From the NCBI GenBank assembly GCA_905250025.1, contig CAJNOJ010000205.1, forward strand, positions 1 to 16,291: 16,291 bases of DNA, in the 5' to 3' direction. This DNA comes from Adineta ricciae (taxonomy: Eukaryota). The position numbers were made by a program, and so were the translations under genes. The notes beneath the pieces are model-generated. The model was not told the DNA's origin, ran no database searches, and saw nothing but the letters and a program-made list of their open reading frames with translations. Of this stretch, positions 1,899 through 16,291 are shown piece after piece (within the stretch, counting starts at the first letter, position 1; every line of letters begins with the position of its first letter).

Positions 1899-2861
1899 AT
1901 GCTACAGAATGCGACAGAGAAAGTCATAGTTACTGGTAGAGATATCTATCTTCCTCCGAACTGGTCGGACATTACCTTCTCTTTATATATAGTTGGTCAA
2001 CTAGCATCGATTCCTTGCTATGTATTTGTATTTTATCATCTTTTGGCTACTAAAACTGCGCGCACAGCTCTCTACAATCACACTACTATAATCATGTTAT
2101 TTTTCAATTTGATCTACCTGACAATAGGTATATCATTAGTATTGATGTTCATGAAAGAGGGCGTATACATGCCATCCACTCCCGCACTTTGTCTTACTCA
2201 TCAAATGGTCGACCGTGGAGTTTGGTATGGAGCTGTATTTACAATGATTTGGCTGTGTATCGAACGACATATCCTAATCTTTTGCTCCAACTGGATCCGA
2301 ACTGCACGTGGGCAATGGGTATTTCATTATATCCCATTAGCTATTTTTTCTCTGTATGCGCCATGTTTTTATTTCTACATGATTTTCATTTATCCATGTG
2401 AGCATATATATGATTATCATGTTACTTTATGTGGTGGCCCTTGGTACTCGTGTTCGTTGTCAGCATCATTTCGTTTGTATTTAACTTTTGGCCATAACTT
2501 CATGCCATTCCCAATCATTTTCATTGTCAGCAGCAGCTTTCTACTTCGAGTCTTGATCCAAAAGCACCGTTTGAAACGTGGTAATATGTGGAAAAAGAAT
2601 CGAAAAATGATTTTACAATTTGTCTTTATTTCTACGACCTATATCAGCTTTGCTCTACCTTTCACGATGGTGAATATTACACGAAGAGTAAATGGTTATG
2701 ATGTCGATCCGAATGTGCGGACACTCTTTGATCGGATGGCCAATGTGCCAGCAATAGTTTTACCTTATGCCACCGCTATAACATTACCTCATGTGAAACA
2801 GAAACTTAAAATGTTAATCTGGTGGAAACGCACACGAACGGCTATCAATCCTTTATCGTGA
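1899..2861 (+). CDS. Rhodopsin-like 7TM receptor (orphan or chemoreceptor-type GPCR), 320 aa, apparently single exon.
   Basis: ATG-initiated ORF of 320 aa. The N-terminal ectodomain carries the sequons NAT and NWS. Seven hydrophobic segments are present. After TM3 there is an E/DRY-like motif (CIERHILIF). The third intracellular loop is basic (KHRLKRGNMWKKNRK) and the C-tail is short. The TM1 - basic loop - TM2 architecture is shared with the two partial receptor genes at the window edges. Confidence 0.6.
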   Translation: MLQNATEKVIVTGRDIYLPPNWSDITFSLYIVGQLASIPCYVFVFYHLLATKTARTALYNHTTIIMLFFNLIYLTIGISLVLMFMKEGVYMPSTPALCLTHQMVDRGVWYGAVFTMIWLCIERHILIFCSNWIRTARGQWVFHYIPLAIFSLYAPCFYFYMIFIYPCEHIYDYHVTLCGGPWYSCSLSASFRLYLTFGHNFMPFPIIFIVSSSFLLRVLIQKHRLKRGNMWKKNRKMILQFVFISTTYISFALPFTMVNITRRVNGYDVDPNVRTLFDRMANVPAIVLPYATAITLPHVKQKLKMLIWWKRTRTAINPLS

Positions 2862-3190: not shown

Positions 3191-4726
3191 ATGATGATTT
3201 TTATTCTACTTGGCGTTGTTGCCATCCTAATTTTTCTTGTCAAAATATTCGATACGACTGACATTCCGAAGATCCACGGACTTCCTGAAGCTCCTAACTG
3301 GCCAGTATTTGGCAGTTTATTCCAGCTGGGTGAGAATCATTCGAAATCACTATCAAAATTAGCGAAAAAACTGGGTCCAGTATTTCAAATTCGTATGGGA
3401 AATCGACGCATTGTAGTGGCGAACTCATATGATTCGATCAAATATTTCTGGGTCAAAAATCAATCCGCACTGATCAGCCGACCGGCATTGCATACATTTC
3501 ATAATGTTGTCAGCAGTGAAGTTTTATCGATTGGAACTTCACCGTGGGATGAGTCATGTAAACAGCGTCGTAAGGCAGCAGCGACTGCATTGAATAAACC
3601 AGCTGTTCAGACATACATGCCCATCATCGATCATGAATCGTACACCGCAATCAACGAAATATTGCACGAGTGTCAAAATGGCAAAGCTGATATTAATATT
3701 ATTCCTCATCTTCAGCGATTTGCATTAAACACATCGTTGACCCTTAACTATGGCACACGAATAGCTTCGTCGGATGATGCACTTTTGAAAGAGATCGTTA
3801 CAGTCGAAGGAGCTGTGGCACAGTTGCGATCAGCATCGAATAATTGGCAAGATTATGTTCCCCTCCTACGAATATTTCCTGCACGATCAAACGAAGCAGC
3901 GACAATTCGTCAACGTCGAGATCGTTACCTCGTTCAGCTACTGAATGGTCTAAAAAAAGACATTGCTAATGGAGTCGACAGACCATGTATAACAGGAAAT
4001 ATCCTCAAAGATCCATCTGCTAAATTAAATGAGACAGAAATTCGAAGCATTTGTTTGACAATGATCAGTGCTGCTCTTGAAACAGTTCCAGCAAACATTA
4101 TTCTCGGTATTGGTTACCTTTCATCGCCACACGGTCAAGAAATTCAGGAACGTGCCTATCGAGAAATTCTTGATGTCTATCCGGATGGTGATGCATGGGA
4201 TAGATGTCTTGATGAAGAACAAGTTCCTTATGTCACCGCTCTCTACAAAGAAATTCTTCGTTATTATACCGTTCACCATATGAGTCTTCCTCGACGTAGT
4301 GTTCAAGATATTGAATACGAAGGTTCACGAATTCCGGCTGGTACGTCATTCTATATGAATGCATTTGCCGGTGACTACGATGAGAATCATTTCGAAGATC
4401 CGTATCAATTCAATCCCGATCGTTATCTAGGTGATGTGGATGGTACACCTCATTACGCATATGGTGCTGGAACACGAATGTGTATTGGTGCTCATTTAGC
4501 GAACCGAGAACTATACACATTTCTCATTCGACTCATCATTGGATTTCGCATTCTCGGACCATTGAATAAAGAAGATGCCGCAATCTTAGATGGAATGGAA
4601 ATCAATGCACGACCTACCGGTCTCGTTGTGCAACCAAAAATGTTCAAATGTCGTTTCGAACCGAGAAATATAGAAGATCTCAAACGATGGATAGACGATA
4701 GCAAACAACGGGCAGAGCATCATTAG
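3191..4726 (+). CDS. Cytochrome P450 monooxygenase, 511 aa, intronless, fungal-type sequence signature.
   Basis: Single ORF starting MMIFILLGVVAILIFLV, a hydrophobic ER signal-anchor. The I-helix motif is AALETVP (AGxDTT-like). The K-helix ExxR is EILR. A PERF-like FNPDRY is present. The heme loop FGAGTRMCIGAHLANRELY matches FxxGxRxCxG, and its HLANRELY continuation is characteristic of fungal CYP clans. A possible TATA (TATATAG) lies at 3129..3135, about 55 nt upstream. Confidence 0.9.
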   Translation: MMIFILLGVVAILIFLVKIFDTTDIPKIHGLPEAPNWPVFGSLFQLGENHSKSLSKLAKKLGPVFQIRMGNRRIVVANSYDSIKYFWVKNQSALISRPALHTFHNVVSSEVLSIGTSPWDESCKQRRKAAATALNKPAVQTYMPIIDHESYTAINEILHECQNGKADINIIPHLQRFALNTSLTLNYGTRIASSDDALLKEIVTVEGAVAQLRSASNNWQDYVPLLRIFPARSNEAATIRQRRDRYLVQLLNGLKKDIANGVDRPCITGNILKDPSAKLNETEIRSICLTMISAALETVPANIILGIGYLSSPHGQEIQERAYREILDVYPDGDAWDRCLDEEQVPYVTALYKEILRYYTVHHMSLPRRSVQDIEYEGSRIPAGTSFYMNAFAGDYDENHFEDPYQFNPDRYLGDVDGTPHYAYGAGTRMCIGAHLANRELYTFLIRLIIGFRILGPLNKEDAAILDGMEINARPTGLVVQPKMFKCRFEPRNIEDLKRWIDDSKQRAEHH

Positions 4727-4925: not shown

Positions 4926-5590
4926 ATGAATGCGTTTGTCGTTGGATTGATTCTCGGCTTGCTAGTCGCAGGAAATGTACTAGCAGTTTTTATCGTCCTG
5001 TGGCGAATATCAGGTTTGGCATTACGATGGTGCCAGTATAAATGTAATTACTTTTTTTTCTAGTCACAAGCTCTACAAGTACGAGTTTAATCAGTACAAC
5101 TGTCACAAGTACTAAGAATCGACTACATAGAAACACGCCTAGTTTTTTCATTCTTTTTCTAGATAAAACTTCAACAACAGCAGCAACTACTATGACTAGA
5201 CCTCCGTCATCGGCCTGCGTATATAATAGCAGTATAACTTTCTACAATAATCAATTTCTTTATTCTTCAACATCGCAAACTTATGCAGCTGGGATGTTAA
5301 ATAATCAATTTGGTGTTTTCAAAGCTTATAGCTATGGAAATGTAACTGCTCAAGCTATATGGACAGCAAATCAAACTTCCACATCCGTTCCATGTTTTCT
5401 TGCTTTACAAACTGACCGTAATTTAGTTGTTTACGCAACGAGTAATCAAACAGTACTATGGGCGGCTAACATTTATAATAATGGCACTGGAAAACCATTC
5501 TGTTTTGAAATATCCGATTCTGGAAACCTAATCTGGATTGACAACAGTAGCTCGATTGTCTGGCAAACAAATACAGCACAAGCGGGATAA
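4926..5590 (+). CDS. Type-II membrane-anchored bulb-type (GNA-like, B_lectin) mannose-binding lectin. Two exons, join(4926..5013, 5064..5590), about 204 aa.
   Basis: Exon 1 encodes MNAFVVGLILGLLVAGNVLAVFIVLWRIS, a 25-residue hydrophobic anchor, and ends in phase 1 at cag|GTTTGG. The 50-nt intron at 5014..5063 ends in a polypyrimidine acceptor, cttttttttctag. Exon 2 restores the frame and gives V-TSSTSTSLISTTVTSTKNRLHRNTPSFFILFLDKTSTTAATT, a Ser/Thr-rich stalk. It then joins the listed 5192..5590 ORF, which contains the canonical bulb-lectin mannose-binding motif QxDxNxVxY as LQTDRNLVVY. Two further degenerate beta-prism subdomain repeats follow (…NNQFGVFKAY…, …ISDSGNLIWID…). Confidence 0.65.
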
Positions 5591-6751
5591 TTCTTTTTCG
5601 CTTTTGACTGACCAGAAAAAAGATCTATTTGCAATGAAGTTTTTCTGTTTTCAACGTTTTATTCGCCGTAATTGACCACATTGTCGACAGATAGAATAAT
5701 AACCAAATCGTTGAGATAGTTCCCATATCCATTCCAAATGACAATATATATGGTGGAACTGTTTGAAAATAAAATACTTCACTGCATTACCATAGAGTCG
5801 ATAGATACAACGCACGGTGGTGCAAAGAGAATGCAGTTAATGTCCACCGAACGATAACTCGTCGTAGGACTGGCACGTGCCATACCATCATTGATTAAAA
5901 CATTTGCACTACCAACGAATAGATGTTCTAACGATTCTGGTTTGCAGGCTAGAAATGCTGCGCCGATAAAATTGTATACACTAACTATTAGTAACCAGTA
6001 GGAAAGATAGGGAAGAGCCATAGAACAAAATGATCTGCTTACGAGTATCTTCGTTTGTAGAACTTTGTTCTAAAGCAAGAGAAACGAAATGTAGTGTGTT
6101 TTATATTATTCATGTATTGTTATCACATCCTTATCAGCTGAATGCAATAGTTTACTCGGATGCCCCATCTTACTACTTTGTAGCGAGTTTTCATAAAATA
6201 AGAAGTTGTTAAAACAGCTATTATAGAGCAAGCCTCATTTACATCATTATGTCATATAGAAAATCGAACGCTTTCATCACCTTGAATAGTTTTAAATATG
6301 ATTTCCAAGTTTCGAAGAGTACCCTCAACGATGCATGAATACGTTCGTTGTTCCATGTCTCAAGTAATACAATTTATGATTGGTTCTTTATCTTGCGGAT
6401 AGAAATCTATTATTAGTTTAGGTAAACACACCGCTGATGGTGAACAGCACGAATTAACAGTGCACAATTATATGTCACATTCTTGCATTAGCAACGCTAA
6501 TGTGATGGAAACCATAATTTCGACTAAAACGAAGAAGAAAGAATAGGTCTGATGATTTTCTTTTTTTTATAGATCGTCTATCATCTTTTCAGAAATCGTG
6601 TTCCTTTTTATTCGGTTATCTGCATCTTAACTTAAATGAAAATCATGGTGATCGCTTGAAGCTGTTTTATTAACATCTATAGAAAAACAAATGTTTCGAC
6701 AATCTGACTTGCTCTTTTTCAGATTTTAGAAATGCATCGTTGAAGGAGTAT

Positions 6752-7969
6752 CTATTGAAATAATTCTTCGAGTCTAACCGTTTGTGTCGGTTCATAGGGC
6801 GCATACCACATTCCAAATTCTGATGCTACTAAATGAATATGTAGTATGATTTTACCATTGAGTTCAAGTTCTACTTCAATTGTATGTTTCGTATGTCCTT
6901 TGCATGCCGATTGCAGTAATGATCGAATATGTTCCACGCTCCAATACGTGTTACTCTTTTTCAAACGAAGCTGTGCTTCCATTTGCTGTCGCGTACTTTC
7001 GTAACGATGCAATGAACTAAAAATGACATTTGATTCACAATTGCGATGACATTGTGGTGAAAACAAATATGTTACCAGGACTACAGATAGGCCCTTTCAG
7101 TTCACTGGTAGCTTTGTCCGTAGGCCAACATTTTGGATGATTGTTAAGCGTTTGTATCAGATGTAAACTTTTCAAATGCAGCTTTCATATCTTGAGGGTG
7201 ATTGAGTGAGCATGAAGTGTTTGTAGCACATGAGTTGCCATATAAGGAAAAGAGGTCAAACGTTTGACTTGTGCTCCGATTTGCGAAGGTCCAGCATTTT
7301 CCGTTGAATAGATCTCGGTTTCATTGACGCTAGATAGCACACCTATCATTCCGGGCCACGATAAGCTAACGTAACGGTATTGTTTCGATGCGCCCGAACT
7401 GTTGATAGCAAATAGTAGAGTAGTCGAGACAGTCACATGATGAATATCACACTCACCATCCATATTGCGACCAGCATATGATTCGTTGATCCGCTGTTAA
7501 AGTATTCCAAACGACAAACTGACTACAGTTTATGGATCATCTGTACGCGCATCTGATCTTATCGTTCGGCGTTCAATCATACTAAATGGATGCTTCAGTT
7601 CATGAAGATAGAGATCATTCCAATATCTTCTGCTACTAAGTAAAAATAAAACCAATCGAGAATATGAGGAGCTAGTAAATATCCATGTGTATAACTTCGA
7701 TCGTCGGTTGTAATGGCATTTAGTTGTAGGACTGGAATACGATTGATTTGCTAGAATCGTGTCGCGTCTGTTTCTGTTGGATAACCGATAGCAAAGAATG
7801 AATGAGGTTTGCGTAGTATAATATCAGCATTTAAATTCGAGATTGTATGTCGAGTCCATTTCTCGCCTGTTTCATTTGTACTCCATCCAAATGCTTGCTT
7901 CTCTGGATGCACCAACGATCCATGTGTATCTGAAAAATATTCACTCTCGCCCGCCCCACCCTCAAGATG
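6752..7969 (-). pseudogene. Decayed gene remnant. Long ORF segments lie in three different minus-strand frames with an in-frame TAG between two of them. Function unknown.
   Basis: Minus-strand segments run 5'->3'. Segment 1, about 7969..7753, reads HLEGGAGESEYFSDTHGSLVHPEKQAFGWSTNETGEKWTRHTISNLNADIILRKPHSFFAIGYPTETDATRF, then a TAG. Segment 2 continues in the same frame from about 7750..7594: QINRIPVLQLNAITTDDRSYTHGYLLAPHILDWFYFYLVAEDIGMISIFMN. Segment 3 is the track ORF 7185..7463 in a second frame (…CDIHHVTVSTTLLFAINSSGASKQYRYVSLSWPGMIGVLSSVNETEIY…). Segment 4 is the track ORF 6752..7066 in a third frame (…HTIEVELELNGKIILHIHLVASEFGMWYAPYEPTQTVRLEELFQ*). I could not find consistent GT..AG introns that join these frames. 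Confidence 0.3.
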
Positions 7970-8081
7970 CTAGCATGTAAAATATTCAGAAAGAAAGATA
8001 AACCATTCTTGTTTATCACTAAGATAAGAAGCACAGTAACCATATTTATATTCAGGATGATTATTTGTCTTCATTTTAGGT

Positions 8082-9897
8082 ATGCTATTTCTACCTGTCT
8101 TTCTGTTGTTAATATGGATACGAGCTGTTGTCTTGCTAGATTTGATGAGCGATACATGGACGGCAACCGATGGCCTTGGTCGTTCTCTCCCCAAAACAGT
8201 ACCGTCACCACGAGCAGATCGATTCGTTGGGATGTTCTATTTTCTCTGGCTTGGCTTTGAATCACCTGATGGACCATTTGACATCAGTAAAATTCTCACA
8301 GCTCATCCAAATGCAATGTTAGAACCGAATAATTCCGCATGGGGGCCGATGACTCATTATCATCACTGGGGTGAACCTTATTTTGGCTACTATCGTTCAA
8401 ACGATCAATGGGTTATTCGGCGACATGCGAGAATGCTGGTCAATGCTGGTGTTGATGTTATCTTCTTCGATGTCACAAATACTGCTGTTTATCTCGAGTC
8501 TTTTCGAGCTATATGCCAAGCCTTTTCCGATGTGCGTGCTGTAGGAGGGTCAACACCGCAAGTTGCATTTCTCACACCTTTTGGATCACCGCTCGGAACG
8601 GTGCAAGTTCTTTTCGACAGTATTTATAAGATAAACTATCATCCGGAACTGTGGTTTCGATGGGAAGGCAAACCATTCATCCTTGCCAATCCACAATCCT
8701 TTCAAACACGTCCGGATATTTTAAATTTTTTTACTTTTCGGACGCCTCAGCCTGATTATTTCACTGGGCCAACTGGTGCCAATCAATGGGGTTGGTTAGA
8801 AATATATCCTCAACACGTCTACAAAACTAGTGCAAACATATCGGAACAAATGACTGTTGGTGTCGCACAGAACGCCGTTGGCAATCGACTGGGATCGATG
8901 AGTGAAGTTGGTTCTCATGGGCGTAGTTTTCATAACAATACTATTCCATCAGGTAATACATTAACACCGTACGGATTAAATATGCAAGAGCAATGGGAAC
9001 GCGCCATAGAAATTGATCCACAATTTGTATTTGTTACTGGTTGGAATGAATGGATTGCTATGCGTCTATCGGAATTCGCTAGTATAAAACTTCCAGTTAT
9101 GTTTGTCGATGAATTCGATTGGGAACATAGTCGTGATATTGAGCCTTGTGCTGGAGGAGTTAACGGAGGGTATCCTGAAGGTAGGCAGCGTGATTTCTAT
9201 TCAGTTATTAATATGTAATGGTTTCCTAGGAAATCATTATCAGGATGCGTACTATTATCAATTAGTGAGCAATGTTCGTCGTTATAAAGGCGCTCGATCT
9301 GTTCCAATACCTACTGAACCGAAAACCATCAATATTGGACAAGATTTTACGCAATGGGAAACGGTTGGACCATCATTCATTGATTATATCAATGACGTAG
9401 AACATCGCAATGAGACTGGATACAACACTAGTATGCACTACCGGGATGATACAGGTCGAAATGACATTATCTTAGTCAAAGTAGCGAGAGACATGAACAA
9501 TGTTTACTTTTATGCTCGAACTAATAACACGCTGACGAATGCGAATAATAGTTCTAACTGGATGTTACTCTTTATTGATATTGATCAAAATTTTACAACA
9601 GGATGGGAAGGATTTGATATTGTAGTTAATCGTCACATTAATGGTTCGCTTACATCTATAGAACGAAGTCAATCTGGCTGGATTTGGCAACTCGTTTCAC
9701 AAATTGCTTTTGCCACCGTTAACCATGAATTACACTTCGCTATTCCCAGAGCGTTATTAGGTTTCAACAGCACAGCTCCTGTCAAGGTTAATTTCAAGTG
9801 GGTAGATAATATGATACGTGATGGCGATATTCTCAGTCTTTTTCAAAATGGAGACACTGCTCCGGATGGTCGGTTCAGTTATGTATTTAATGGTTAG
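8082..9897 (+). CDS. Secreted TIM-barrel glycoside-hydrolase-like protein of bacterial type. Two exons, join(8082..9180, 9230..9897), 588 aa.
   Basis: Two track ORFs (8082..9218 and 9103..9897) sit in different frames. They are joined exactly by a 49-nt GT..AG intron at 9181..9229 (GTAGGCAG…gtttcctAG). The donor falls after codon position 1, so G|GA reconstitutes Gly and gives …GGYPEG-NHYQDAYYYQ…. The N-terminus MLFLPVFLLLIWIRAVVLL is signal-peptide-like. The catalytic-domain motifs are those of bacterial (beta/alpha)8 glycosidases: HYHHWGEPYFGYYRSNDQWVIRRHARMLVNAGVDVIFFDVTN and a strand ending FVFVTGWNEWIAM (an 'NEW' motif, as in GH99/GH71/GH114-type and GHL families). The C-terminal ~250 aa form a beta-sandwich-like domain (NVYFYARTNNTLTN…WMLLFIDIDQNFTTGWEGFDIVVNR). 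A possible TATA (TATTTATA) lies at 8043..8050. Confidence 0.8.
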
Positions 9898-9938
9898 GGA
9901 TTGGGAAAAAAATTGTACTTCTCAAACATATTCAAACT

Positions 9939-11461
9939 CTAAACTGCTTGAGCATGCGCTTCTTGTTTGGTTTTCTTTTGAAAAGTGCTCAATCCATCGT
10001 ATTCATTGTCACCCCAATAGAAAATAAGACTCTTTTCTGTTGCACCTTGTCCATATGGATAATACTTCTGATAGTCTAATGTATTGCTTAGTCCTCCCTT
10101 TTGGTCCACCAGAAGAATCACATTTTGATCATTTGGTTTGATAGTATTTCGCAGAACTGTATTACCAGATGCATACGAAATCGAAATTTCACCACCACCT
10201 GTACGATTGTTGTCATTTTGTTCAAGACGATTGTCAGTAAATGAACAATTCACCACTCGACCACGTCTAAAAGCGTTCATTTTCGTTATTCATTAACAGA
10301 AAAACTCTTAAGAAATCATTTACTTAGAATCATATCCACCGAAGGCCAATCCATATTTATCATTGTGATGAAGATAATTATTTCGCACAGTCATCTTCGT
10401 ACCTATTTGACCTTTATTCTCTGCACCAATTTCAATTCCCATGTCTGAATGATGTACTTCATTGTTTTCTATGGTGACATTCGATGCTCCATCAACATAG
10501 ATACCAGCTGCACTATGATCGTAAACTGAATGAATGTTCCAAACTGTGTTATTCGCACATCGAGCACTTCGAACCCCCAATTTACCGGCCCAGCTTTCAC
10601 CAGCTAATATTATGTTATATAGTTAACTTTTAATTAGAGAAATCATCAAAAGTCATACCGATGAAATCGATTCCAATGTTATTCATGTTATATACTTTGT
10701 TGTTCGTTACTTGAATCTCCTCAACGTTTCCATTGAAAGTCAAAGCTTCACTCCATGCTGGCTCACAATCATGGAGCGTGCAATTATCAACGATCACTTG
10801 TCGTCGACTCGTTTTCTGGTTTGTGTTATAAACGGTAATCGCCATTGCACCGCCGTTTTCGCCACCACCACGGATATCGTGAATATGGAGATTTCGAAGT
10901 TCTAGAAACATAAACTATATTTTTGGTAACGACAGCTTCAAAAACCTACCAACATTGGTTCCAGCGCCAGTAATTCTCACTCCACTGCATTCTGTCGATT
11001 TCAAACCTGTCAATTCTAAGTTGACAAAGCGGAGATAACTTTTATCTTGAACAAAGATTATATTTAATGTTCCATCAGCGGATGCTTTTTTTGTATCTTT
11101 GCCAGAAATAATCGGTGCATTGTTTGATGTTAAACTAGTGAATGTAATCGGCCCGTCTTGAGCATTGCCTTGGACGTTAATTGTGACAGCTTCGTAATAC
11201 GTTCCGGCACCAATGTAAACGGTAGAACCAGGTGTTGCCGAATTTGCTGCTTTTTGAACTGTTAACCAAGCAGTGGTTTCAGTAGTTCCTGCATTGGTAT
11301 CCTTGCCAGATTTGGTCACATAGTAAGATTTACCCGCTACTATTTAAAATAAACACATAGAACATTTTACGCTCAATCATATGATAGGCGTTCGTGTACA
11401 TACTTATTTGCATCCATAAAAGGGCACTCATCAAACATATAAGTTGAAATTGGAACGACAT
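9939..11461 (-). CDS. Secreted right-handed parallel beta-helix (PbH1-repeat, pectin-lyase-fold) protein, bacterial type, paralog 1. Five exons, complement(join(9939..10266, 10324..10603, 10659..10901, 10950..11339, 11404..11461)), 432 aa.
   Basis: Exon 1 is 58 nt and encodes MSFQFQLICLMSALLWMQI, a signal peptide. It ends in phase 1 at A|GTATGT. Intron 1 is 64 nt and ends tttattttaaatAG. Exon 2 begins …AGKSYYVTKSGKDTNAGTTETTAWLTVQKAANSATPGSTVYIGAGTYYE, the N-terminal cap signature of bacterial beta-helix proteins, and ends AATGTTG|GTAGGT. Intron 2 is 48 nt. Exon 3 encodes ELRNLHIHDIRGGG…NNIGIDFIG and ends ATCG|GTATGA. Intron 3 is 55 nt. Exon 4 carries PbH1 repeats (NVTIENNEVHHSDMGIEIGAEN…TVRNNYLHHNDKYGLAFGGYDSK) and ends TCTAA|GTAAAT. 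Intron 4 is 57 nt. Exon 5 encodes …TGGGEISISYASGNTVLRNTIKPN…SLIFYWGDNEYDGLSTFQKKTKQEAHAQAV*. Exon lengths sum to 1299 nt, which is 433 codons. All four junctions restore the frames of the track ORFs 10915..11319, 10630..10911, 10320..10580 and 9939..10280. Confidence 0.8.
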
Positions 11462-11508
11462 GATGAAAATCGTGAATACGAATGAGGTGGTAGATGTTTA
11501 TGTCGTTT

Positions 11509-11517
11509 CTTTATATA
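11509..11517 (-). promoter_or_regulatory. TATA box (TATATAAAG on the minus strand) about 48 nt upstream of the paralog-1 start codon.
   Basis: On the minus strand the sequence reads TCTTATATAAAGAAACGACATAAACATCTACCACCTCATTCGTATTCACGATTTTCATC-ATG. A near-identical arrangement, GGTATATATAAAGAAG…ATC-ATG, is found upstream of paralog 3. The corresponding position in paralog 2 is degenerate (GGTATGTTCACGC). Confidence 0.5.
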
Positions 11518-11900
11518 AGACATAGGTTACGATTAAAAGCGCAGGCAAATATTTACACCTCTTCTACTGTTTAGTCATAAACGGTTTCTTTTGAAATCGT
11601 GTCATGCATAGCCTCCAGCGCTGTGAATGCATTCTGTTCTGTATCAGAAACAAATCAACAATCTCCCTTGTGAAAAGATGCCATTAGAGGCATTAGTAAC
11701 CAATGTTTTTCTTCGTGACCATGCATTTGCAAACGTAAAATAATCATGACTACGTGTCGTCACCTTTATCGATTGAAACGATAATTACATTTTTCAATTT
11801 TTTCTTTCTCTCGCCTTCTCACAAGCTGACAATGTCGTCACTATCATGTGACTGGCAAACACGACATATCTTTATTCAAAACTTATGTAAACAAATGTTT

Positions 11901-13646
11901 CTACTCCAAGGCACGTTTACCAACACTGATCTGTGCATGCATCTCTTGTTTTGTATTCTCTTGGAATGCAGTGAGACCCTGGTATTCTCTATGTCCCCAA
12001 TAGAAGATTAGACTTTCTTTTGTTGCACCTCGTCCGTTCGGATAGTACTTTTGATAATCGAAGTGATTATTCAAACCACCTCTTTGGCTTGCTACTAGGA
12101 TTACGTTCTGTCTGTTTGGCTTTATTGTATTGCGCTGCACTATATTACCAGAAGCAAATGAAATGGAAATTTCTCCGCCACCAGTCAGATGTGCATCATT
12201 CTGTTCAAGATGATTGCCAGTAAATGAACTATTTGTCACTGTACCACATCTGTAAAATATCAGTATACATTTATTGATACTACCAAAATATGTGCGAATA
12301 TAACTTACTGAGAATCATATCCACCAAAAGCTAAGCCATATTTGTCGTTGTGATGAAGATAATTATTTCGAACAATCACCCTTGTAGCCATTCGACCTTT
12401 ATTCTCTGCACCAATTTCAATTCCCATATCTGCATGATGCACTACGTTGTGTTCTATGGTGACATTCGATGCTCCATCAACATAGATACCAGCTGCACTA
12501 TGATCGTAAACTGAATGAATGTTCCAAACTGTGTTATTCGCACATCGAGCACTTCGAACCCCCAATTTACCGGCCCAGCTTTCACCAGCTAGTAATATGT
12601 TATATAGTTAACTTTTAATTAGAGAAATCATCAAAAGTCATACCGATGAAATCGATTCCAATGTTGTTCATGTTATATACTTTGTTGTTCGTTACTTGAA
12701 TCTCCTCAACGTTTCCATTGAAAGTCAAAGCTTCGCTCCAAGCTGGCTCACAATCATGAAGCGTGCAATTATCAACGATCACTTGTCGTCGACTCGCGTT
12801 CTGGTTTGTGTTATAAACGGTAATCGCCATTGCACCGCCGTTTTCGCCACCACCACGGATATCGTGAACGTGGAGATTTCGAAGTTCTAGGAATATAAAA
12901 GGATAATTTTAATATCGATAAGCGTGAAACCTACCAATATTCGTTCCAGGGCCGATTATTCTCACTCCACTACACTCTACCGCTCTCAAATTTGTTAGTT
13001 CTAAATTGACGAACCGTAAATAGCTTTTGTCTTCAATATAGATGACATTGAATGTTTCATCGGCAGATGGATTTTGTGAAATTCTACCAGAAATAATTGG
13101 CACGTTGTTTGATATCAAACTAGTGAACGTAATTGGTCCATCGTGTGCATTTCCTTCTACGTTAATCGTCACTGTTTCATAATAAATGCCAGGACCAATA
13201 TAGACAGTAGAACCAGGTGTCGCTGAATTCGCTGCTCTTTGTATCGTTAACCAAGCAGTTACTCTACTTGTTCCCGCATTGGTATCTTGACCAGATTTCA
13301 TTACGTAATACGATCTGCGCGCCACTATGTAATAAACGCATACCCTTCTGTCGAGAATTATTGTTGTAGACTCACGGATAAAAAAAATGAATATATCAGA
13401 TCTGATAGAAAACTTTATGTTGAACATCTCAACGGTACACTTTGTCAGATATTCAAAATACATGCACTCATGTTTCAAGATTTATTCACTTACTTCCATC
13501 TTGCGTCCCGGGTGAGATTTTGTTCACTAGAAATTGAACTAGCACAGAGTGCTGCATGCTCAATTAGACAAATATTATGCATACGTACTTATTTGCGTCC
13601 ATAAAAGACCGGTGGCTAAATACATAGAATGCAGTCGATCAAACAT
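11901..13646 (-). CDS. Beta-helix protein paralog 2, the middle copy. Exons 2-5 are intact but the 5' end is divergent. Proposed model: complement(join(11901..12249, 12309..12588, 12644..12886, 12935..13324, 13589..13646)), about 439 aa if the homologous exon 1 is used.
   Basis: Exons 2-5 are the same length as in paralog 1 apart from exon 5 (390, 243 and 280 nt, with exon 5 at 349 nt). Junctions are homologous: AATATTG|GTAGGT, ATCG|GTATGA and TCTCA|GTAAGT. Introns 2, 3 and 4 are 48, 55 and 59 nt. Exon 2 encodes …ARRSYYVMKSGQDTNAGTSRVTAWLTIQRAANSATPGSTVYIGPGIYYE…. Exon 5 ends …KQEMHAQISVGKRALE*. The sequence homologous to exon 1 (13589..13646) encodes MFDRLHSMYLATGLLWTQI, which is no longer hydrophobic. 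It is separated from exon 2 by a 264-nt interval at 13325..13588 rather than a ~60-nt intron. No TATA box lies upstream. Whether this copy is expressed or secreted is uncertain. Confidence 0.6.
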
Positions 13647-13976
13647 GATGAAAATGATCAATGTGAATGAGGTATCAGATGCTCGTATCGTGCGTGAACA
13701 TACCAGAAGAAGTTTGCATTACTGATAAATATTTTCTTTGCATAGTGCGTCACGCATCGCTCTAGTATATGGAAAAATTGGCATTAAAAGTGTTAGTAAC
13801 CAGTGTTTTTCTCTTCATGACTATGCGTTTTGCAAATATAAATAAAACATGCCTATATGTCACCGCCTCCTCAGATCGAAGTGATGATTGCATATTTCAA
13901 TTTTCTCTTTCTCATCTTCCGACAACAGTGTCACTTTCATGTGATTTGCGATCGCAACATATATTTCATTCAAACT

Positions 13977-15530
13977 TTATAGAAAAAAGCGTTTACGTCC
14001 AAAGGCACGTTTGCTAACGCCGAGTTCTGCATGCATTTCTTGTTTGGTATTCTGTTGAAAGGAAGTCAAACCATCATACTCCGTGTTTCCCCAAAAGAAG
14101 ATAAGACTTTCTTTGGTAGCACCTTGACCATTCGGATAGTACTTTTGATAGTCAAATTGATTATTCAAACCACCTTCTTGGCTGGCAAGTAGAATTACAT
14201 TTTGTGAGTTTGGTCTTATCGTGTTACCATAGACTACATTGCCCGAAGCAAATGAGATTGAAATTTCTCCACCACCGGTAAGACGTACATCGTTCTGTTC
14301 AAGACGATTATTTATAAATAAACTATTGGTGACTTGACCACGTCTATAATGTGTTAACGTGCTCGTACTTTCATGTCACGAGATTATGCATAAATATAAC
14401 TTACTGAGAATCATATCCGCCAAAAGCTAAGCCATATTTGTCATTGTGATGAAGATAATTATTCCGAACAGTCATTTTTGAAGCCACTCGACCTTTATTC
14501 TCTGCGCCAACTTCGATCCCCATGTCCGAATGGTGTACTTCGTTAGATTCGATAGTGACATTCGATGCTCCATCAACATAGATACCCGCTGAACTACTAT
14601 CATAGACGGAGTGAATGTTCCACACGAGGTTATAAGCACAGAGACCATTTCGTACTCCAAGAGCACCGAGGAAGCTTTCTCCACCTTTAGAAAAAGAAAA
14701 AAAATATAACATTTCTGATATTTGACTGAGTTCTACATACCAATGAAATCGATTCCAATGTTGTTCATGTTATACACTTTGTTGTTCGTTACTTGAAAAT
14801 CTTCAATATTTCCATTGAAAGTCAAAGCTTCACTCCACGCTGGCTCGCAATCATGGAGTATACAACTATCAACGATCACTTGTCGTCGACTTGCCGTTTG
14901 ATCTTTATTGTAAACCGTGATTGGCATTGCTCCACCGCTCTGTCCACCGCCACGAATATCATGAATGTGCAAACCTCGAAGTTCTTGAAGCAAAAGCTAT
15001 ATTTTTGGTAACGACAGCATCAAAACCTACCAACATTGGTTCCAGCACCAGTAATTCTCACACCACTACATTCTACTGCTTTCAAATCTGTCAATTCTAA
15101 ATTGACAAAGCGCAAATAGCTTTTCTCTTGAATAAAAATTATGTTCATGGTGCCATCAGCAGATTCTGTTTTAGCCTGTTTGCCAGATATCACTGCTGGC
15201 TTATCAAAGATCAAGCTAGCGAATGTAATTAGTCCATCTCGGGCATTTCCTTGTACATTGACTGTTACTGTTTCATAATACGTTCCAGGACCAATGTAAA
15301 CCGTGGATCCGGGTGTTGCTGAATTCGCAGCTTTTTGAACTGTTAACCAAGCAGATGTCTCACTCGTTCCTGCATTGGTATCCTTGCCAGATTTCGTTAC
15401 ATAGTATGTTCTACCAGCTACTATATAATAGCCATACAGAAGACCTTATATTTCATAGTAGAAAATCTTTGCACATACCTGTTTGAGTCCAAAGTAAAAG
15501 AAAAGTGAAACAAGCAAGTCCTGTTTGCAT
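13977..15530 (-). CDS. Secreted beta-helix protein paralog 3. Five exons, complement(join(13977..14343, 14405..14684, 14741..14983, 15031..15420, 15479..15530)), 443 aa.
   Basis: Exon 1 is 52 nt and encodes MQTGLACFTFLLLWTQT, a signal peptide, ending G|GTATGT. Intron 1 is 58 nt and ends tattatatAG. Exon 2 encodes VAGRTYYVTKSGKDTNAGTSETSAWLTVQKAANSATPGSTVYIGPGTYYE… and ends AATGTTG|GTAGGT. Intron 2 is 47 nt and ends gcttcaAG. Exon 3 encodes ELRGLHIHDIRGGGQSGG…NNIGIDFIG and ends ATTG|GTATGT. Intron 3 is 56 nt and ends ttctaaAG. Exon 4 encodes GESFLGALGVRNG…GGYDSQ and ends CA|GTAAGT. Intron 4 is 61 nt and ends cattatAG. Exon 5 encodes …GGGEISISFASGNVVYGNTIRPN…SLIFFWGNTEYDGLTSFQQNTKQEMHAELGVSKRAFGRKRFFL*. 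Exon lengths sum to 1332 nt, which is 444 codons. Confidence 0.8.
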
Positions 15531-15567
15531 GATCGTTGTAAAATCTGTTTGACGAAATGTAATTCTT

Positions 15568-15578
15568 CTTTATATATA
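15568..15578 (-). promoter_or_regulatory. TATA box (TATATATAAAG on the minus strand) about 40 nt upstream of the paralog-3 start codon.
   Basis: On the minus strand the sequence reads GGTATATATAAAGAAGAATTACATTTCGTCAAACAGATTTTACAACGATC-ATG. The spacing and the ATC-ATG start context match paralog 1. Confidence 0.5.
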
Positions 15579-15855
15579 CCATACACGTATTTACCAAGGA
15601 AAGTGCAAGGGTCTATTTATATGTCACTTGTTAGGCGTCACTCTCAAGCAGTTTTCTATTTTCTATAACATGCGCACTTCTCAATATCAATTAGTTTTTC
15701 TTGCGTATGAAGTGAACTGCATATGTAACATGTTTCTGCATGGCTTCCTTCATTAATTGAGTTAGTTTATTTCAAGTGTTCGAAAAGGAAAAGGGTATAC
15801 ATGTAAATAGAGTAGGAGGGCGGAATGATACGACAACATTTGTTTTTGTGTGCTT

Positions 15856-16291
15856 TTATTTAGTGATGCCTGCACCTGTATGAGTCGCTGTTAACGTTGG
15901 TCGAACTCGATGTTGATTTTTGCTACATCCAAACATCATAATACATTCTTGCCGAAATTCTTTAAATGTGAGAAAATAAAGTGGAAATGACAAGATATGA
16001 TAAGTATACAAAACTGGATCTAGAATTTTAACCGATATTGGTGGAGGTATGTCAGAAAATGCAGAGGCAATGGTTGCTGGTACTGTCATGATCAGAAAGA
16101 GACATGTTGTAATAACCAGTGTAATCGAAATCGCTCGGTGATTGATTCGGGAGTTTTGAATCAATTGTGTTTGGTGACGACGATATAAATGATGAATCAC
16201 TCCACTATTAAGTGTCACCATAAGAATAAACGGTGCAAAATTGTACACACCTAAATTGACATAATCCCATAAGGGATAAATAATGTATAGT
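15856..16291 (-). CDS. Rhodopsin-like 7TM receptor, 3' portion (about TM3/4 to the C-terminus). The gene starts beyond the right edge.
   Basis: The minus-strand frame is open from the right edge to a stop at 15856..15858. The track 'M' at 16248 is a GTG codon inside the ORF. The translation reads …LYIIYPLWDYVNLGVYNFAPFILMVTLNSGVIHHLYRRHQTQLIQNSRINHRAISITLVITTCLFLIMTVPATIASAFSDIPPPISVKILDPVLYTYHILSFPLYFLTFKEFRQECIMMFGCSK… It contains a TM7 NPxxY-like motif (DPVLY) and a basic intracellular loop, as in the 1899..2861 receptor. Confidence 0.55.
   Translation of the reverse strand, partial: LYIIYPLWDYVNLGVYNFAPFILMVTLNSGVIHHLYRRHQTQLIQNSRINHRAISITLVITTCLFLIMTVPATIASAFSDIPPPISVKILDPVLYTYHILSFPLYFLTFKEFRQECIMMFGCSKNQHRVRPTLTATHTGAGITK

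What the first reader, a model, noticed from the sequence alone, without database searches (positions are those of the whole stretch)
10470..12886. Mosaic identity among the paralogs indicates gene conversion, including an intron
One tract is essentially identical between copy 1 (10470..10901) and copy 2 (12455..12886). It covers the 5' half of exon 4, all of intron 3 and exon 3. That includes a 137-nt perfectly identical run, and the 55-nt intron differs at only a few positions. Copy 3 is clearly more diverged in this tract. In exon 2 the pattern reverses. There, copies 1 and 3 share many residues (…TKSGKDTNAGT[T/S]ET[T/S]AWLTVQKAANS…NVQGNA) that copy 2 lacks (…MKSGQDTNAGTSRVTAWLTIQRAANS…NVEGNAH). 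In exon 5, copies 2 and 3 group together (ISFASGN, LNN, PNG.GATKESLIF, KQEMHA) against copy 1 (ISYASGN, LSN, PYGQGATEKSLIF, KQEAHA). Purifying selection cannot explain near-identity that extends through an intron. Conflicting tree signal along one gene is the hallmark of non-allelic gene conversion, or of recent partial re-duplication. The locus is therefore actively recombining.
Basis: seen in the sequence. Interest (0 to 1): 0.6.

Follow-up and report, generated by a model that had tools for sequence, protein, structure and literature searches.

The report
Gene conversion among tandem rotifer paralogs
Three neighbouring copies of a bacterial-type secreted beta-helix gene in the asexual rotifer Adineta ricciae keep copying a ~440-base stretch, intron included, from one copy to another; this is a clear but ordinary case of gene conversion between duplicated genes.

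Summary
The window is an Adineta ricciae (bdelloid rotifer) contig. It carries three intact, five-exon, minus-strand paralogs of a secreted right-handed beta-helix gene. Copy 1 (10467-10905) and copy 2 (12452-12890) are 429/439 identical across exon 3, intron 3 and the first 137 nt of exon 4, with a 140-nt perfect run. Copy 3 is about 78% identical there. The second haplotype of the same locus (L009, 94% identical, also three copies) settles the question. Inside the tract, 28 sites follow c1=c2≠c1'=c2' and none are paralog-specific. Outside it the counts are 0 and 241. Tract dS is 0.04-0.06 between paralogs, against 0.32-0.35 between alleles. So conversion happened after the haplotypes diverged, and most likely in both. 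Shorter significant fragments link c1-c3 (end of exon 2 plus intron 2, 55/57) and c2-c3 (end of exon 4 plus start of intron 4, 72/75). The exon-2 grouping has no synonymous-site support across most of the exon. The 3' c2-c3 grouping, together with the end-to-end homologous spacers, fits copy 2 being an old unequal-crossover chimera. This is a known mechanism in a new place. Interest is modest.

The parts
9939..11461 (-). Copy 1 (c1). Five exons: 11461-11404, 11339-10950, 10901-10659, 10603-10324, 10266-9939. Product 432 aa, a secreted right-handed beta-helix protein.
   Evidence: Gene model. It is identical to the A. ricciae protein P0124 annotated in another assembly. Pfam PF13229, E=5.6e-17.
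11901..13646 (-). Copy 2 (c2). Five exons: 13646-13589, 13324-12935, 12886-12644, 12588-12309, 12249-11901. Product 439 aa. Intron 1 is 264 nt.
   Evidence: It matches P0005 and P0128 apart from alternative splicing models.
13977..15530 (-). Copy 3 (c3). Five exons: 15530-15479, 15420-15031, 14983-14741, 14684-14405, 14343-13977. Product 443 aa.
   Evidence: It is identical to P0003, named Adineta ricciae by its source.
10467..10905 (-). Recent conversion tract, c1 side. It covers the last 4 nt of intron 2, exon 3, intron 3 and the first 137 nt of exon 4.
   Evidence: 429/439 identical to c2 and about 78% to c3. 28 concerted sites and 0 paralog-specific sites against haplotype B. Permutation p<=2e-4.
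12452..12890 (-). Recent conversion tract, c2 side.
   Evidence: Same evidence as the c1 side.
10467..10606 (-). The 140-nt perfectly identical run. Its c2 counterpart is 12452-12591.
10915..10972 (-). Older c1-c3 exchange fragment, c1 side. It spans the end of exon 2 and most of intron 2. Its c3 counterpart is 14997-15053.
   Evidence: 55/57 identical, against 65-67% to c2. Significant in all four c1/c3 allele combinations, p 0.0002-0.003.
14997..15053 (-). Older c1-c3 exchange fragment, c3 side.
12297..12371 (-). c2-c3 fragment, c2 side. It spans the end of exon 4 and the first 12 nt of intron 4. Its c3 counterpart is 14393-14467.
   Evidence: 72/75 identical, against 83-84% to c1. p=0.005-0.03.
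14393..14467 (-). c2-c3 fragment, c3 side.
11462..11900 (-). Spacer between c2 and c1. It is homologous end to end with the c3-c2 spacer.
   Evidence: blastn gives 71% over 213 nt and 77% over the 35 nt before the ATG. Neither the c3 upstream flank nor the c1 downstream flank matches the spacers.
13647..13976 (-). Spacer between c3 and c2.

Best explanation
The 439-bp near-identical tract shared by copies 1 and 2 comes from non-allelic (interlocus) gene conversion between tandem paralogs 2 kb apart on the same chromosome. Shown: the copying happened after the two A. ricciae haplotypes diverged, certainly in the window's haplotype and very probably independently in the other. It includes synonymous sites and intron 3. 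It stops within about 10 nt of the same points in both haplotypes. Inferred mechanism: a DNA break in one copy is repaired by homology-directed, non-crossover repair (SDSA-type) using the neighbouring paralog, on the same chromatid or the sister, as template. The tract ends where identity collapses. On the 5' side this is intron 2, which is 63-74% identical. On the 3' side there are 6 mismatches in the first 25 nt. Each event therefore restores the high identity that allows the next, producing a self-maintaining island of concerted evolution inside otherwise diverging genes. Shorter and older fragments between c1-c3 and c2-c3 show that all three copies have exchanged sequence. The deeper pattern is that c2 resembles c1 at its 5' end and c3 at its 3' end, with duplicated spacers. 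This is best read as c2 having arisen by unequal crossing-over between an older c3-c1 pair (inferred, about 0.55). All three genes remain under purifying selection.
For: The tract is 429/439 identical, with a 140-nt perfect run, and intron 3 is 53/55 identical. The second haplotype, L009, is collinear, 93.9% identical and has three intact copies. Inside the tract, 28 sites follow c1=c2≠c1'=c2' and 0 are paralog-specific. Outside it the counts are 0 and 241, Fisher p=1e-38. NJ bootstrap gives (c1,c2) 100 and (c1',c2') 100 in the tract, and alleles 100 in both flanks. Tract dS is 0.064 for c1-c2 and 0.037 for c1'-c2', against 0.32-0.35 between alleles and 0.5-2.3 between the paralogs outside the tract. 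dN/dS is 0.05-0.2 throughout. Eleven polarisable derived states are shared by c1 and c2 in the window's haplotype. A GENECONV-like permutation finds the c1-c2 fragment and the independent c1-c3 and c2-c3 fragments. Allelic divergence of c1 and c2 is about 1.8-fold higher inside the tract (8.0% against 4.0-4.7%, p=0.003-0.018), while c3 shows no such rise. This is the known side-effect of interlocus conversion (abstract of PMC3966223). For the chimera origin: the spacers are homologous end to end while the outer flanks are not. In exon 5 the tree is ((c2,c3),(c1,A. vaga)) at 100% and 75% bootstrap, with 21 quartet sites against 5 and 2.
Against: All sequence comes from short-read assemblies of one whole-genome-amplified library, assembled with SPAdes at k up to 121. 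The 'second assembly' proteins probably come from the same reads. The 140-nt perfect run is longer than k, so extra collapsed repeat units cannot be excluded. The direction and number of events are unresolved. Derived shared states are strongly asymmetric, 11 in haplotype A against 1 in B. So conversion in haplotype B rests mainly on the near-identity of c1' and c2' (434/438), not on shared derived sites. No clear GC bias was seen: 6 W->S against 4 S->W. Exon 2 does not fit the simple chimera model, because dS is similar for all three pairs.
Confidence: 0.9

Rival explanations
1. The near-identical tract is an assembly artefact, such as a collapsed or chimeric path through a repeat, or mis-phasing of haplotypes.
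For: The assembly is short-read, whole-genome-amplified and built with SPAdes at k up to 121. The 140-nt perfect run exceeds k.
Against: All four tract sequences (c1, c2, c1', c2') are distinct. Discriminating sites lie 12-15 nt from the flank-specific sites at both borders, so single k-mers or reads must link them. Apart from the one 140-nt run, no run between differences exceeds 70 nt. Both haplotypes independently show three copies and the same structure. Swapping paths across the 140-nt run would change copy order or number, not create the tract.
Confidence: 0.03
2. Strong functional constraint, from protein, splicing or an intronic element, keeps the tract identical without any copying.
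For: Exon 3 encodes the most conserved part of the protein: c1 is 95% aa-identical to the A. vaga homolog there.
Against: Tract dS is 0.04-0.06 against 0.5-2.3 outside. Intron 3 is 96-100% identical between c1 and c2 but differs at 7 positions between haplotypes, and is unalignable with c3's intron 3. There are no Rfam matches in the window. Alleles differ at 35 sites where the paralogs agree.
Confidence: 0.01
3. One conversion, or the chimera event itself, before the haplotypes split made the tract identical, and nothing has happened since.
For: The borders are the same in both haplotypes to within 10 nt. Only one clearly derived state is shared by c1' and c2'.
Against: Eleven derived states are shared by c1 and c2 in haplotype A, and 28 concerted sites stand against 0 paralog-specific sites. 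Without later copying, the paralogs within a haplotype should differ about as much as alleles do (8%), not 1-2%.
Confidence: 0.03
4. The exon-2 (c1-c3) and exon-5 (c2-c3) groupings reflect duplication history and unequal rates rather than gene conversion. On this view c2 is an old unequal-crossover chimera that has also accumulated extra amino-acid changes in exon 2.
For: In exon 2, dS is 0.82-1.16 for all pairs, while dN is highest for the c2 pairs. The spacers are homologous end to end. In exon 5, c2-c3 dS is about 1, and c1 groups with the A. vaga gene.
Against: Short fragments that include intron sequence are significantly too similar: c1-c3 55/57 and c2-c3 72/75. In exon 2 there are 8 sites of the pattern c1=c3=c3'≠c1'=c2=c2' against 1 of the reverse. 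This suggests at least one further exchange after the haplotype split.
Confidence: 0.45

Closest known systems
Interlocus (non-allelic, ectopic) gene conversion and concerted evolution of tandem duplicates, as described for Caenorhabditis, Drosophila and human paralogs (PMC3966223, PMC3924832, PMC4467073; globin and opsin examples from my own knowledge)
   Same: A bounded tract of near-identity includes introns and synonymous sites. Paralogs within a genome copy are more alike than their alleles or orthologs. Tree topology changes along the gene. Allelic divergence is raised inside the tract.
   Different: Here it is seen in both homologs of a putatively ancient asexual animal, in a gene family of apparent bacterial origin. 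The tract borders are almost identical in the two haplotypes.
Allelic gene conversion between homologous chromosomes in bdelloid rotifers (discussed in PMC5916493, PMC8494291, PMC3464624)
   Same: It is homology-directed copying, plausibly linked to repair of DNA breaks in a desiccation-tolerant species.
   Different: The template is a paralog 2 kb away in cis, not the homolog. The homologs stay 6-8% diverged over the whole 8 kb, with no identical allelic tract.
Unequal crossing-over hybrid genes in tandem arrays (Lepore/anti-Lepore globins and opsin arrays, from my own knowledge)
   Same: The middle copy has the 5' end of its downstream neighbour and the 3' end of its upstream neighbour, and the spacer is duplicated.
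   Different: The event is ancient (dS about 1), shared by both haplotypes, overprinted by later conversions, and only inferred.

Membership tests
Interlocus gene conversion / concerted evolution | A discrete tract of elevated identity between paralogs, flanked by diverged sequence, beyond chance | tested here: met
   429/439 identical inside, against 51-87% in the flanking segments. Permutation p<=5e-5 and p<=2e-4.
Interlocus gene conversion / concerted evolution | Identity extends to neutral sites (synonymous and intronic) | tested here: met
   Tract dS is 0.04-0.06 against 0.5-2.3 outside. Intron 3 is 53/55 identical in haplotype A and 54/54 over aligned positions in haplotype B.
Interlocus gene conversion / concerted evolution | Paralogs within one genome copy are more similar than alleles or orthologs across copies | tested here: met
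   28 concerted sites against 0 paralog-specific sites in the tract. NJ gives (c1,c2) 100 and (c1',c2') 100.
Interlocus gene conversion / concerted evolution | Non-reciprocal transfer (donor unchanged) and its direction | not testable with these tools
   Only end products are available. There are weak hints that the tract is of c1 lineage: intron 3 of c1/c2 is 75% identical to the A. vaga intron against 61-68% for c3.
Interlocus gene conversion / concerted evolution | GC-biased repair signature | tested here: inconclusive
   6 W->S against 4 S->W among 12 polarised sites. GC content of the tract is similar in all copies.
Unequal crossing-over chimeric gene | The duplicated spacer is homologous over its whole length while the outer flanks are unique | tested here: met
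Unequal crossing-over chimeric gene | The 5' part groups with the downstream neighbour and the 3' part with the upstream neighbour | tested here: inconclusive
   The 3' part fits clearly, with (c2,c3) at 94-100%. Of the 5' part, only exon 1 and the 35 nt upstream favour c1-c2. Exon 2 does not fit.
Right-handed beta-helix proteins (Pfam PF13229; PF22842 Pel9A-like) | Score above the Pfam gathering threshold | tested here: met
   PF13229 scores 62.3 bits against a cut-off of 25.9. PF22842 is precomputed for the homologs and for the annotated products.
Bdelloid horizontally acquired gene | The nearest homologs outside rotifers are non-metazoan | tested here: met
   After bdelloid hits at 56-83% identity, all listed hits (36-50% identity) are bacterial or metagenomic, for example Verrucomicrobia, Caldithrix and Blastocatellia. 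No formal HGT index was computed.

The most novel reading that the evidence does not exclude
At this locus, within-haplotype (cis or sister-chromatid) ectopic conversion has homogenised paralogs since the homologs diverged. Meanwhile no allelic conversion has touched the same 8 kb. If that imbalance holds genome-wide in A. ricciae, break repair in this desiccation-tolerant asexual would mostly use cis or sister templates rather than the homolog. That would help explain why its homologs stay unusually diverged (median 4.6%, PMC5916493). Tandem paralogs would then serve as a built-in meter of ectopic versus allelic recombination in bdelloids.
Probability: 0.15. Interest if true: 0.6.

Novelty: new member of a known kind. 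Interest (0 to 1): 0.35.

Why it matters
This is a clean, datable example of ectopic gene conversion in a bdelloid rotifer. In that group, published discussion of recombination has centred on allelic conversion, and ectopic exchange is mentioned mainly as a possibility (PMC8494291). There are three practical consequences. First, trees, dS-based dating and orthology calls for this horizontally acquired family, and probably for other tandem families in bdelloids, will be misled unless mosaic structure is handled. Second, haplotype divergence is locally inflated inside the conversion tract. Third, the public annotation fuses two of the copies. Mechanistically the finding is ordinary for tandem duplicates.

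Tried and rejected
Look-ups of P0005 and P0127 found nothing on record. Haplotype B was finally reached through P0121. The A. vaga homolog locus L001 is not syntenic with the window, so I used it only as a sequence outgroup. Global pairwise identities of short AT-rich introns and flanks have a baseline near 0.6 and were uninformative, except for intron 2 (c1-c3), intron 3 (c1-c2, and c1/c2 against A. vaga) and the c2-c3 downstream flank. The GC-biased conversion test was inconclusive. There were no Rfam families in the window, so an intronic RNA does not explain the intron identity. The PDB sequence search gave only a weak N-terminal match to a xylosidase, which is not enough to assign an activity. 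I considered and rejected a fourth copy: P0122 is c3 with a NAGNAG alternative acceptor. I also considered a structural partial re-duplication, which is unnecessary because both haplotypes share the same structure.
Full report
**What the window is.** The intronless P450 ORF (3191-4726) is found exactly on contig CAJNOR010002926.1 of assembly GCA_905250095.1, where window position equals contig position minus 6. Sources name the proteins of this contig Adineta ricciae, a bdelloid rotifer. The sequence is AT-rich with 47-64-nt GT..AG introns.

**The three genes.** The repeat finder shows three direct copies spaced 1985 and 2096 nt apart. I built gene models on the minus strand:
- c1 spans 9939-11461 and encodes 432 aa.
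- c2 spans 11901-13646 and encodes 439 aa.
- c3 spans 13977-15530 and encodes 443 aa.

Each gene has five exons, intron positions are conserved, and all reading frames are open. The c1 model is identical to P0124 and the c3 model to P0003, both from A. ricciae annotations. The proteins carry an N-terminal hydrophobic leader. They match Pfam Beta_helix PF13229 (E=5.6e-17) and, in precomputed hits, PF22842 Pel9A-like. Homologs at 56-83% identity occur in Adineta, Rotaria and Didymodactylos. The next hits, at 36-50%, are bacterial or metagenomic. That pattern is typical of a horizontally acquired bdelloid gene family.

**Checking the observation.** Mismatch positions place the borders at c1 10905 and 10467 (c2 12890 and 12452), giving 429/439 identical. 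Intron 3 is 55 nt with 2 differences. Other segments give these c1-c2, c1-c3 and c2-c3 identities:

| Segment | c1-c2 | c1-c3 | c2-c3 |
|---|---|---|---|
| Exon 2 | 0.754 | 0.800 | 0.736 |
| Intron 2 | 0.68 | 0.89 | 0.60 |
| Exon 5 | 0.69 | 0.70 | 0.78 |

Permutation of polymorphic sites gives p<=5e-5 for the c1-c2 run. Site patterns are heterogeneous across segments, with chi2=155 and p=3e-28.

I then made per-segment NJ trees. The outgroups were A. vaga (L001), A. steineri (L004, L006, L008) and a distant A. ricciae paralog (L007). Exons 2-4 align without gaps and all splice sites are conserved. The trees give:
- (c1,c3) at 89% in exon 2.
- (c1,c2) at 100% in exon 3 and the 5' part of exon 4.
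- (c2,c3) at 94% in the rest of exon 4 and 100% in exon 5, where c1 groups with the A. vaga gene at 75%.

**The decisive evidence: a second haplotype.** Cluster membership revealed a second set of A. ricciae proteins. P0127 corresponds to c1', P0126 to c2' and P0121 to c3'. Within the tract, c1' and c2' share amino-acid states that differ from those of c1 and c2. The DNA is locus L009 (contig CAJNOR010000694.1, same assembly). It is collinear with window 7971-16291 at 93.9% identity and carries three intact copies with the same structure. This divergence fits the separately assembled homologs of A. ricciae, with median divergence 4.55%, mean Ks 0.135 and ohnolog Ks 1.27 (PMC5916493).

Site by site, the tract contains 28 sites with c1=c2≠c1'=c2' and none with c1=c1'≠c2=c2'. 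Everywhere else the counts are 0 and 241 (Fisher p=1e-38). Tract identities are as follows:

| Pair | Identical / aligned |
|---|---|
| c1-c2 | 429/439 |
| c1'-c2' | 434/438 |
| c1-c1' | 403/438 |
| c2-c2' | 403/438 |

NJ bootstrap gives (c1,c2) 100 and (c1',c2') 100 in the tract, whereas alleles pair at 100 in both flanks. Nei-Gojobori dS in the tract is 0.064 for c1-c2 and 0.037 for c1'-c2'. It is 0.32-0.35 between alleles, and c1-c2 dS outside the tract is 0.5-2.3. dN/dS is 0.05-0.2 in every segment, so all copies are under purifying selection. Of 12 concerted sites that can be polarised with c3, c3' and A. vaga, 11 are derived states shared by c1 and c2 in the window's haplotype. Sequence has therefore been copied between c1 and c2 after the haplotypes diverged. 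Given the 99% identity of c1' and c2', this very probably happened in the other haplotype too.

**Other fragments.** A GENECONV-like permutation on the six sequences recovers the main tract in both haplotypes (c1 coordinates 10905-10467 and 10914-10470). It also finds:
- A c1-c3 fragment at the end of exon 2 plus intron 2 (c1 10915-10972 = c3 14997-15053). It is 55/57 identical, and c2 is about 66% identical there. It is significant in all four allele combinations, so it is older than the haplotype split.
- A c1-c3 patch at c1 11252-11323, seen only in the window's haplotype (p=0.009).
- c2-c3 fragments at the end of exon 4 plus the start of intron 4 (c2 12297-12371 = c3 14393-14467, 72/75 identical) and within exon 5 (p about 0.005).

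In exon 2, eight sites follow c1=c3=c3'≠c1'=c2=c2' against one site of the reverse pattern. This hints at another small exchange after the haplotype split. All three copies have therefore exchanged sequence.

- Exon 2: synonymous divergence is the same for all three pairs (dS 0.82-1.16). The c1-c3 grouping there comes mostly from c2-specific replacements (dN 0.16-0.18 against 0.12) and from the short fragments above.
- The 3' c2-c3 grouping is old, with dS about 1 in exon 5.
- The two spacers (11462-11900 and 13647-13976) are homologous from end to end, at 71% over 213 nt and 77% over the 35 nt before the ATG. The flank upstream of c3 and the flank downstream of c1 match neither spacer.

A middle copy that is c1-like at its 5' end (promoter-proximal sequence and exon 1) and c3-like at its 3' end, between duplicated spacers, is what unequal crossing-over between an older c3-c1 pair would produce. 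The old crossover point may coincide with the 3' border of today's conversion tract. Exon 2 does not fit neatly, so I hold this at about 0.55.

**Mechanism (inferred).**
- A break in one paralog is repaired by homology-directed, non-crossover repair from the neighbour 2 kb away.
- The tract ends where identity collapses. These points are intron 2 on the 5' side and a cluster of 6 mismatches in 25 nt on the 3' side.
- This explains why the borders agree within 10 nt in the two haplotypes, and why the island of identity perpetuates itself.
- Allelic divergence of c1 and c2 is about 1.8-fold higher inside the tract (8.0% against 4.0-4.7%, p=0.003-0.018), while c3 shows no such rise. This is the known tendency of interlocus conversion to raise within-locus variation (abstract of PMC3966223).

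**Artefact check.** The assembly is Illumina data from a whole-genome-amplified clonal culture, assembled with SPAdes at k up to 121 (PMC7943196). The four tract sequences are all distinct. Haplotype-discriminating sites lie 12-15 nt from flank-specific sites at both borders. Only the 140-nt run exceeds k. Mis-resolving that run would change copy order or number but would not create the tract. Extra collapsed units cannot be excluded without long reads or depth data. The matching proteins on the 189,886-bp and 122,887-bp contigs probably derive from the same reads and are weak independent support.

**Context.**
- The syntenic A. steineri locus has the same GH-like neighbour. In different assemblies it holds one copy, one copy plus fragments, or two copies that are 97% identical.
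- A Rotaria sp. Silwood1 contig has two tandem copies at 86-90% identity. The family is therefore generally dynamic in copy number.
- The bdelloid papers I read concentrate on allelic conversion (PMC5916493, PMC3464624). One mentions ectopic recombination as a possibility (PMC8494291). My searches found no paper describing interlocus conversion in tandem bdelloid paralogs, but the library is incomplete.

**Verdict.** The mechanism is textbook for tandem duplicates, so this is a new member of a known kind. Interest is 0.35.

Noticed in passing
window 9939-13301 (L002 9945-13307); L009 12229-15594: The public annotation fuses c2 and c1 into a single product, 801 aa (P0128) in this haplotype and 851 aa (P0125) in the other. 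The five-exon models given here, and P0124 and P0127 from another assembly, show that they are two separate genes.
   Followed up: yes
window 13325-13588: Intron 1 of c2 is 264 nt, against 64 nt in c1 and 58 nt in c3. It is 265 nt in haplotype B. One annotation (P0005) places an extra coding exon inside it and also splices out part of exon 5. RNA evidence was not available.
   Followed up: partly
window 10467-10905 and 12452-12890 against L009: Allelic divergence of c1 and c2 is about 1.8-fold higher inside the conversion tract (8.0% against 4.0-4.7%), while c3 shows no rise. Shared derived states are strongly asymmetric, 11 in this haplotype against 1 in the other. The asymmetry is unexplained. 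Possible causes are differential fixation of c1-type and c2-type sequence, or an external donor.
   Followed up: partly
L004, L005, L006 (Adineta steineri): The syntenic locus, next to the same GH-like gene, has one copy, one copy plus gene fragments, or two copies that are 97% identical, depending on the assembly. There the duplication unit includes part of the GH-like neighbour, so it is an independent and recent duplication.
   Followed up: partly
L010 (Rotaria sp. Silwood1): Two tandem copies of the same family are 86-90% identical at the nucleotide level, including upstream sequence and intron sequence. They are annotated as one fused 595-aa product.
   Followed up: partly
window 5606-7943 against L009 17880-20612: Haplotype identity drops to 85-89% here, with large indels and overlapping matches. 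The called gene models differ between haplotypes: an Erg28-domain gene and a 591-aa gene are called in L009, against a 264-aa minus-strand gene in the window.
   Followed up: no
window 1899-2861, 3191-4726, 5192-5590, 8082-9897, 15856-16248: The neighbours are two weak 7TM/rhodopsin-like genes at the window edges, an intronless cytochrome P450, a B-lectin (D-mannose-binding) gene, and a 588-aa gene with a weak GH99-like match. This makes a compact cluster of secreted or carbohydrate-related genes, some of which may also be of foreign origin.
   Followed up: no
window 15420-15422 (c3 exon 1/2 junction): The intron 1 acceptor of c3 is a NAGNAG site (ATATAG|TAG). P0122 (442 aa) is c3 using the downstream acceptor, so it is probably an isoform and not a fourth copy.
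   Followed up: partly
P0129 (ENA contig, 1189 nt): An independent environmental or other assembly holds a 94-aa fragment with the haplotype-B form of exon 3 (NQNTSRRQ), read through into intron 3. This suggests the sequence type also exists outside this assembly. The DNA was not retrievable.
   Followed up: no
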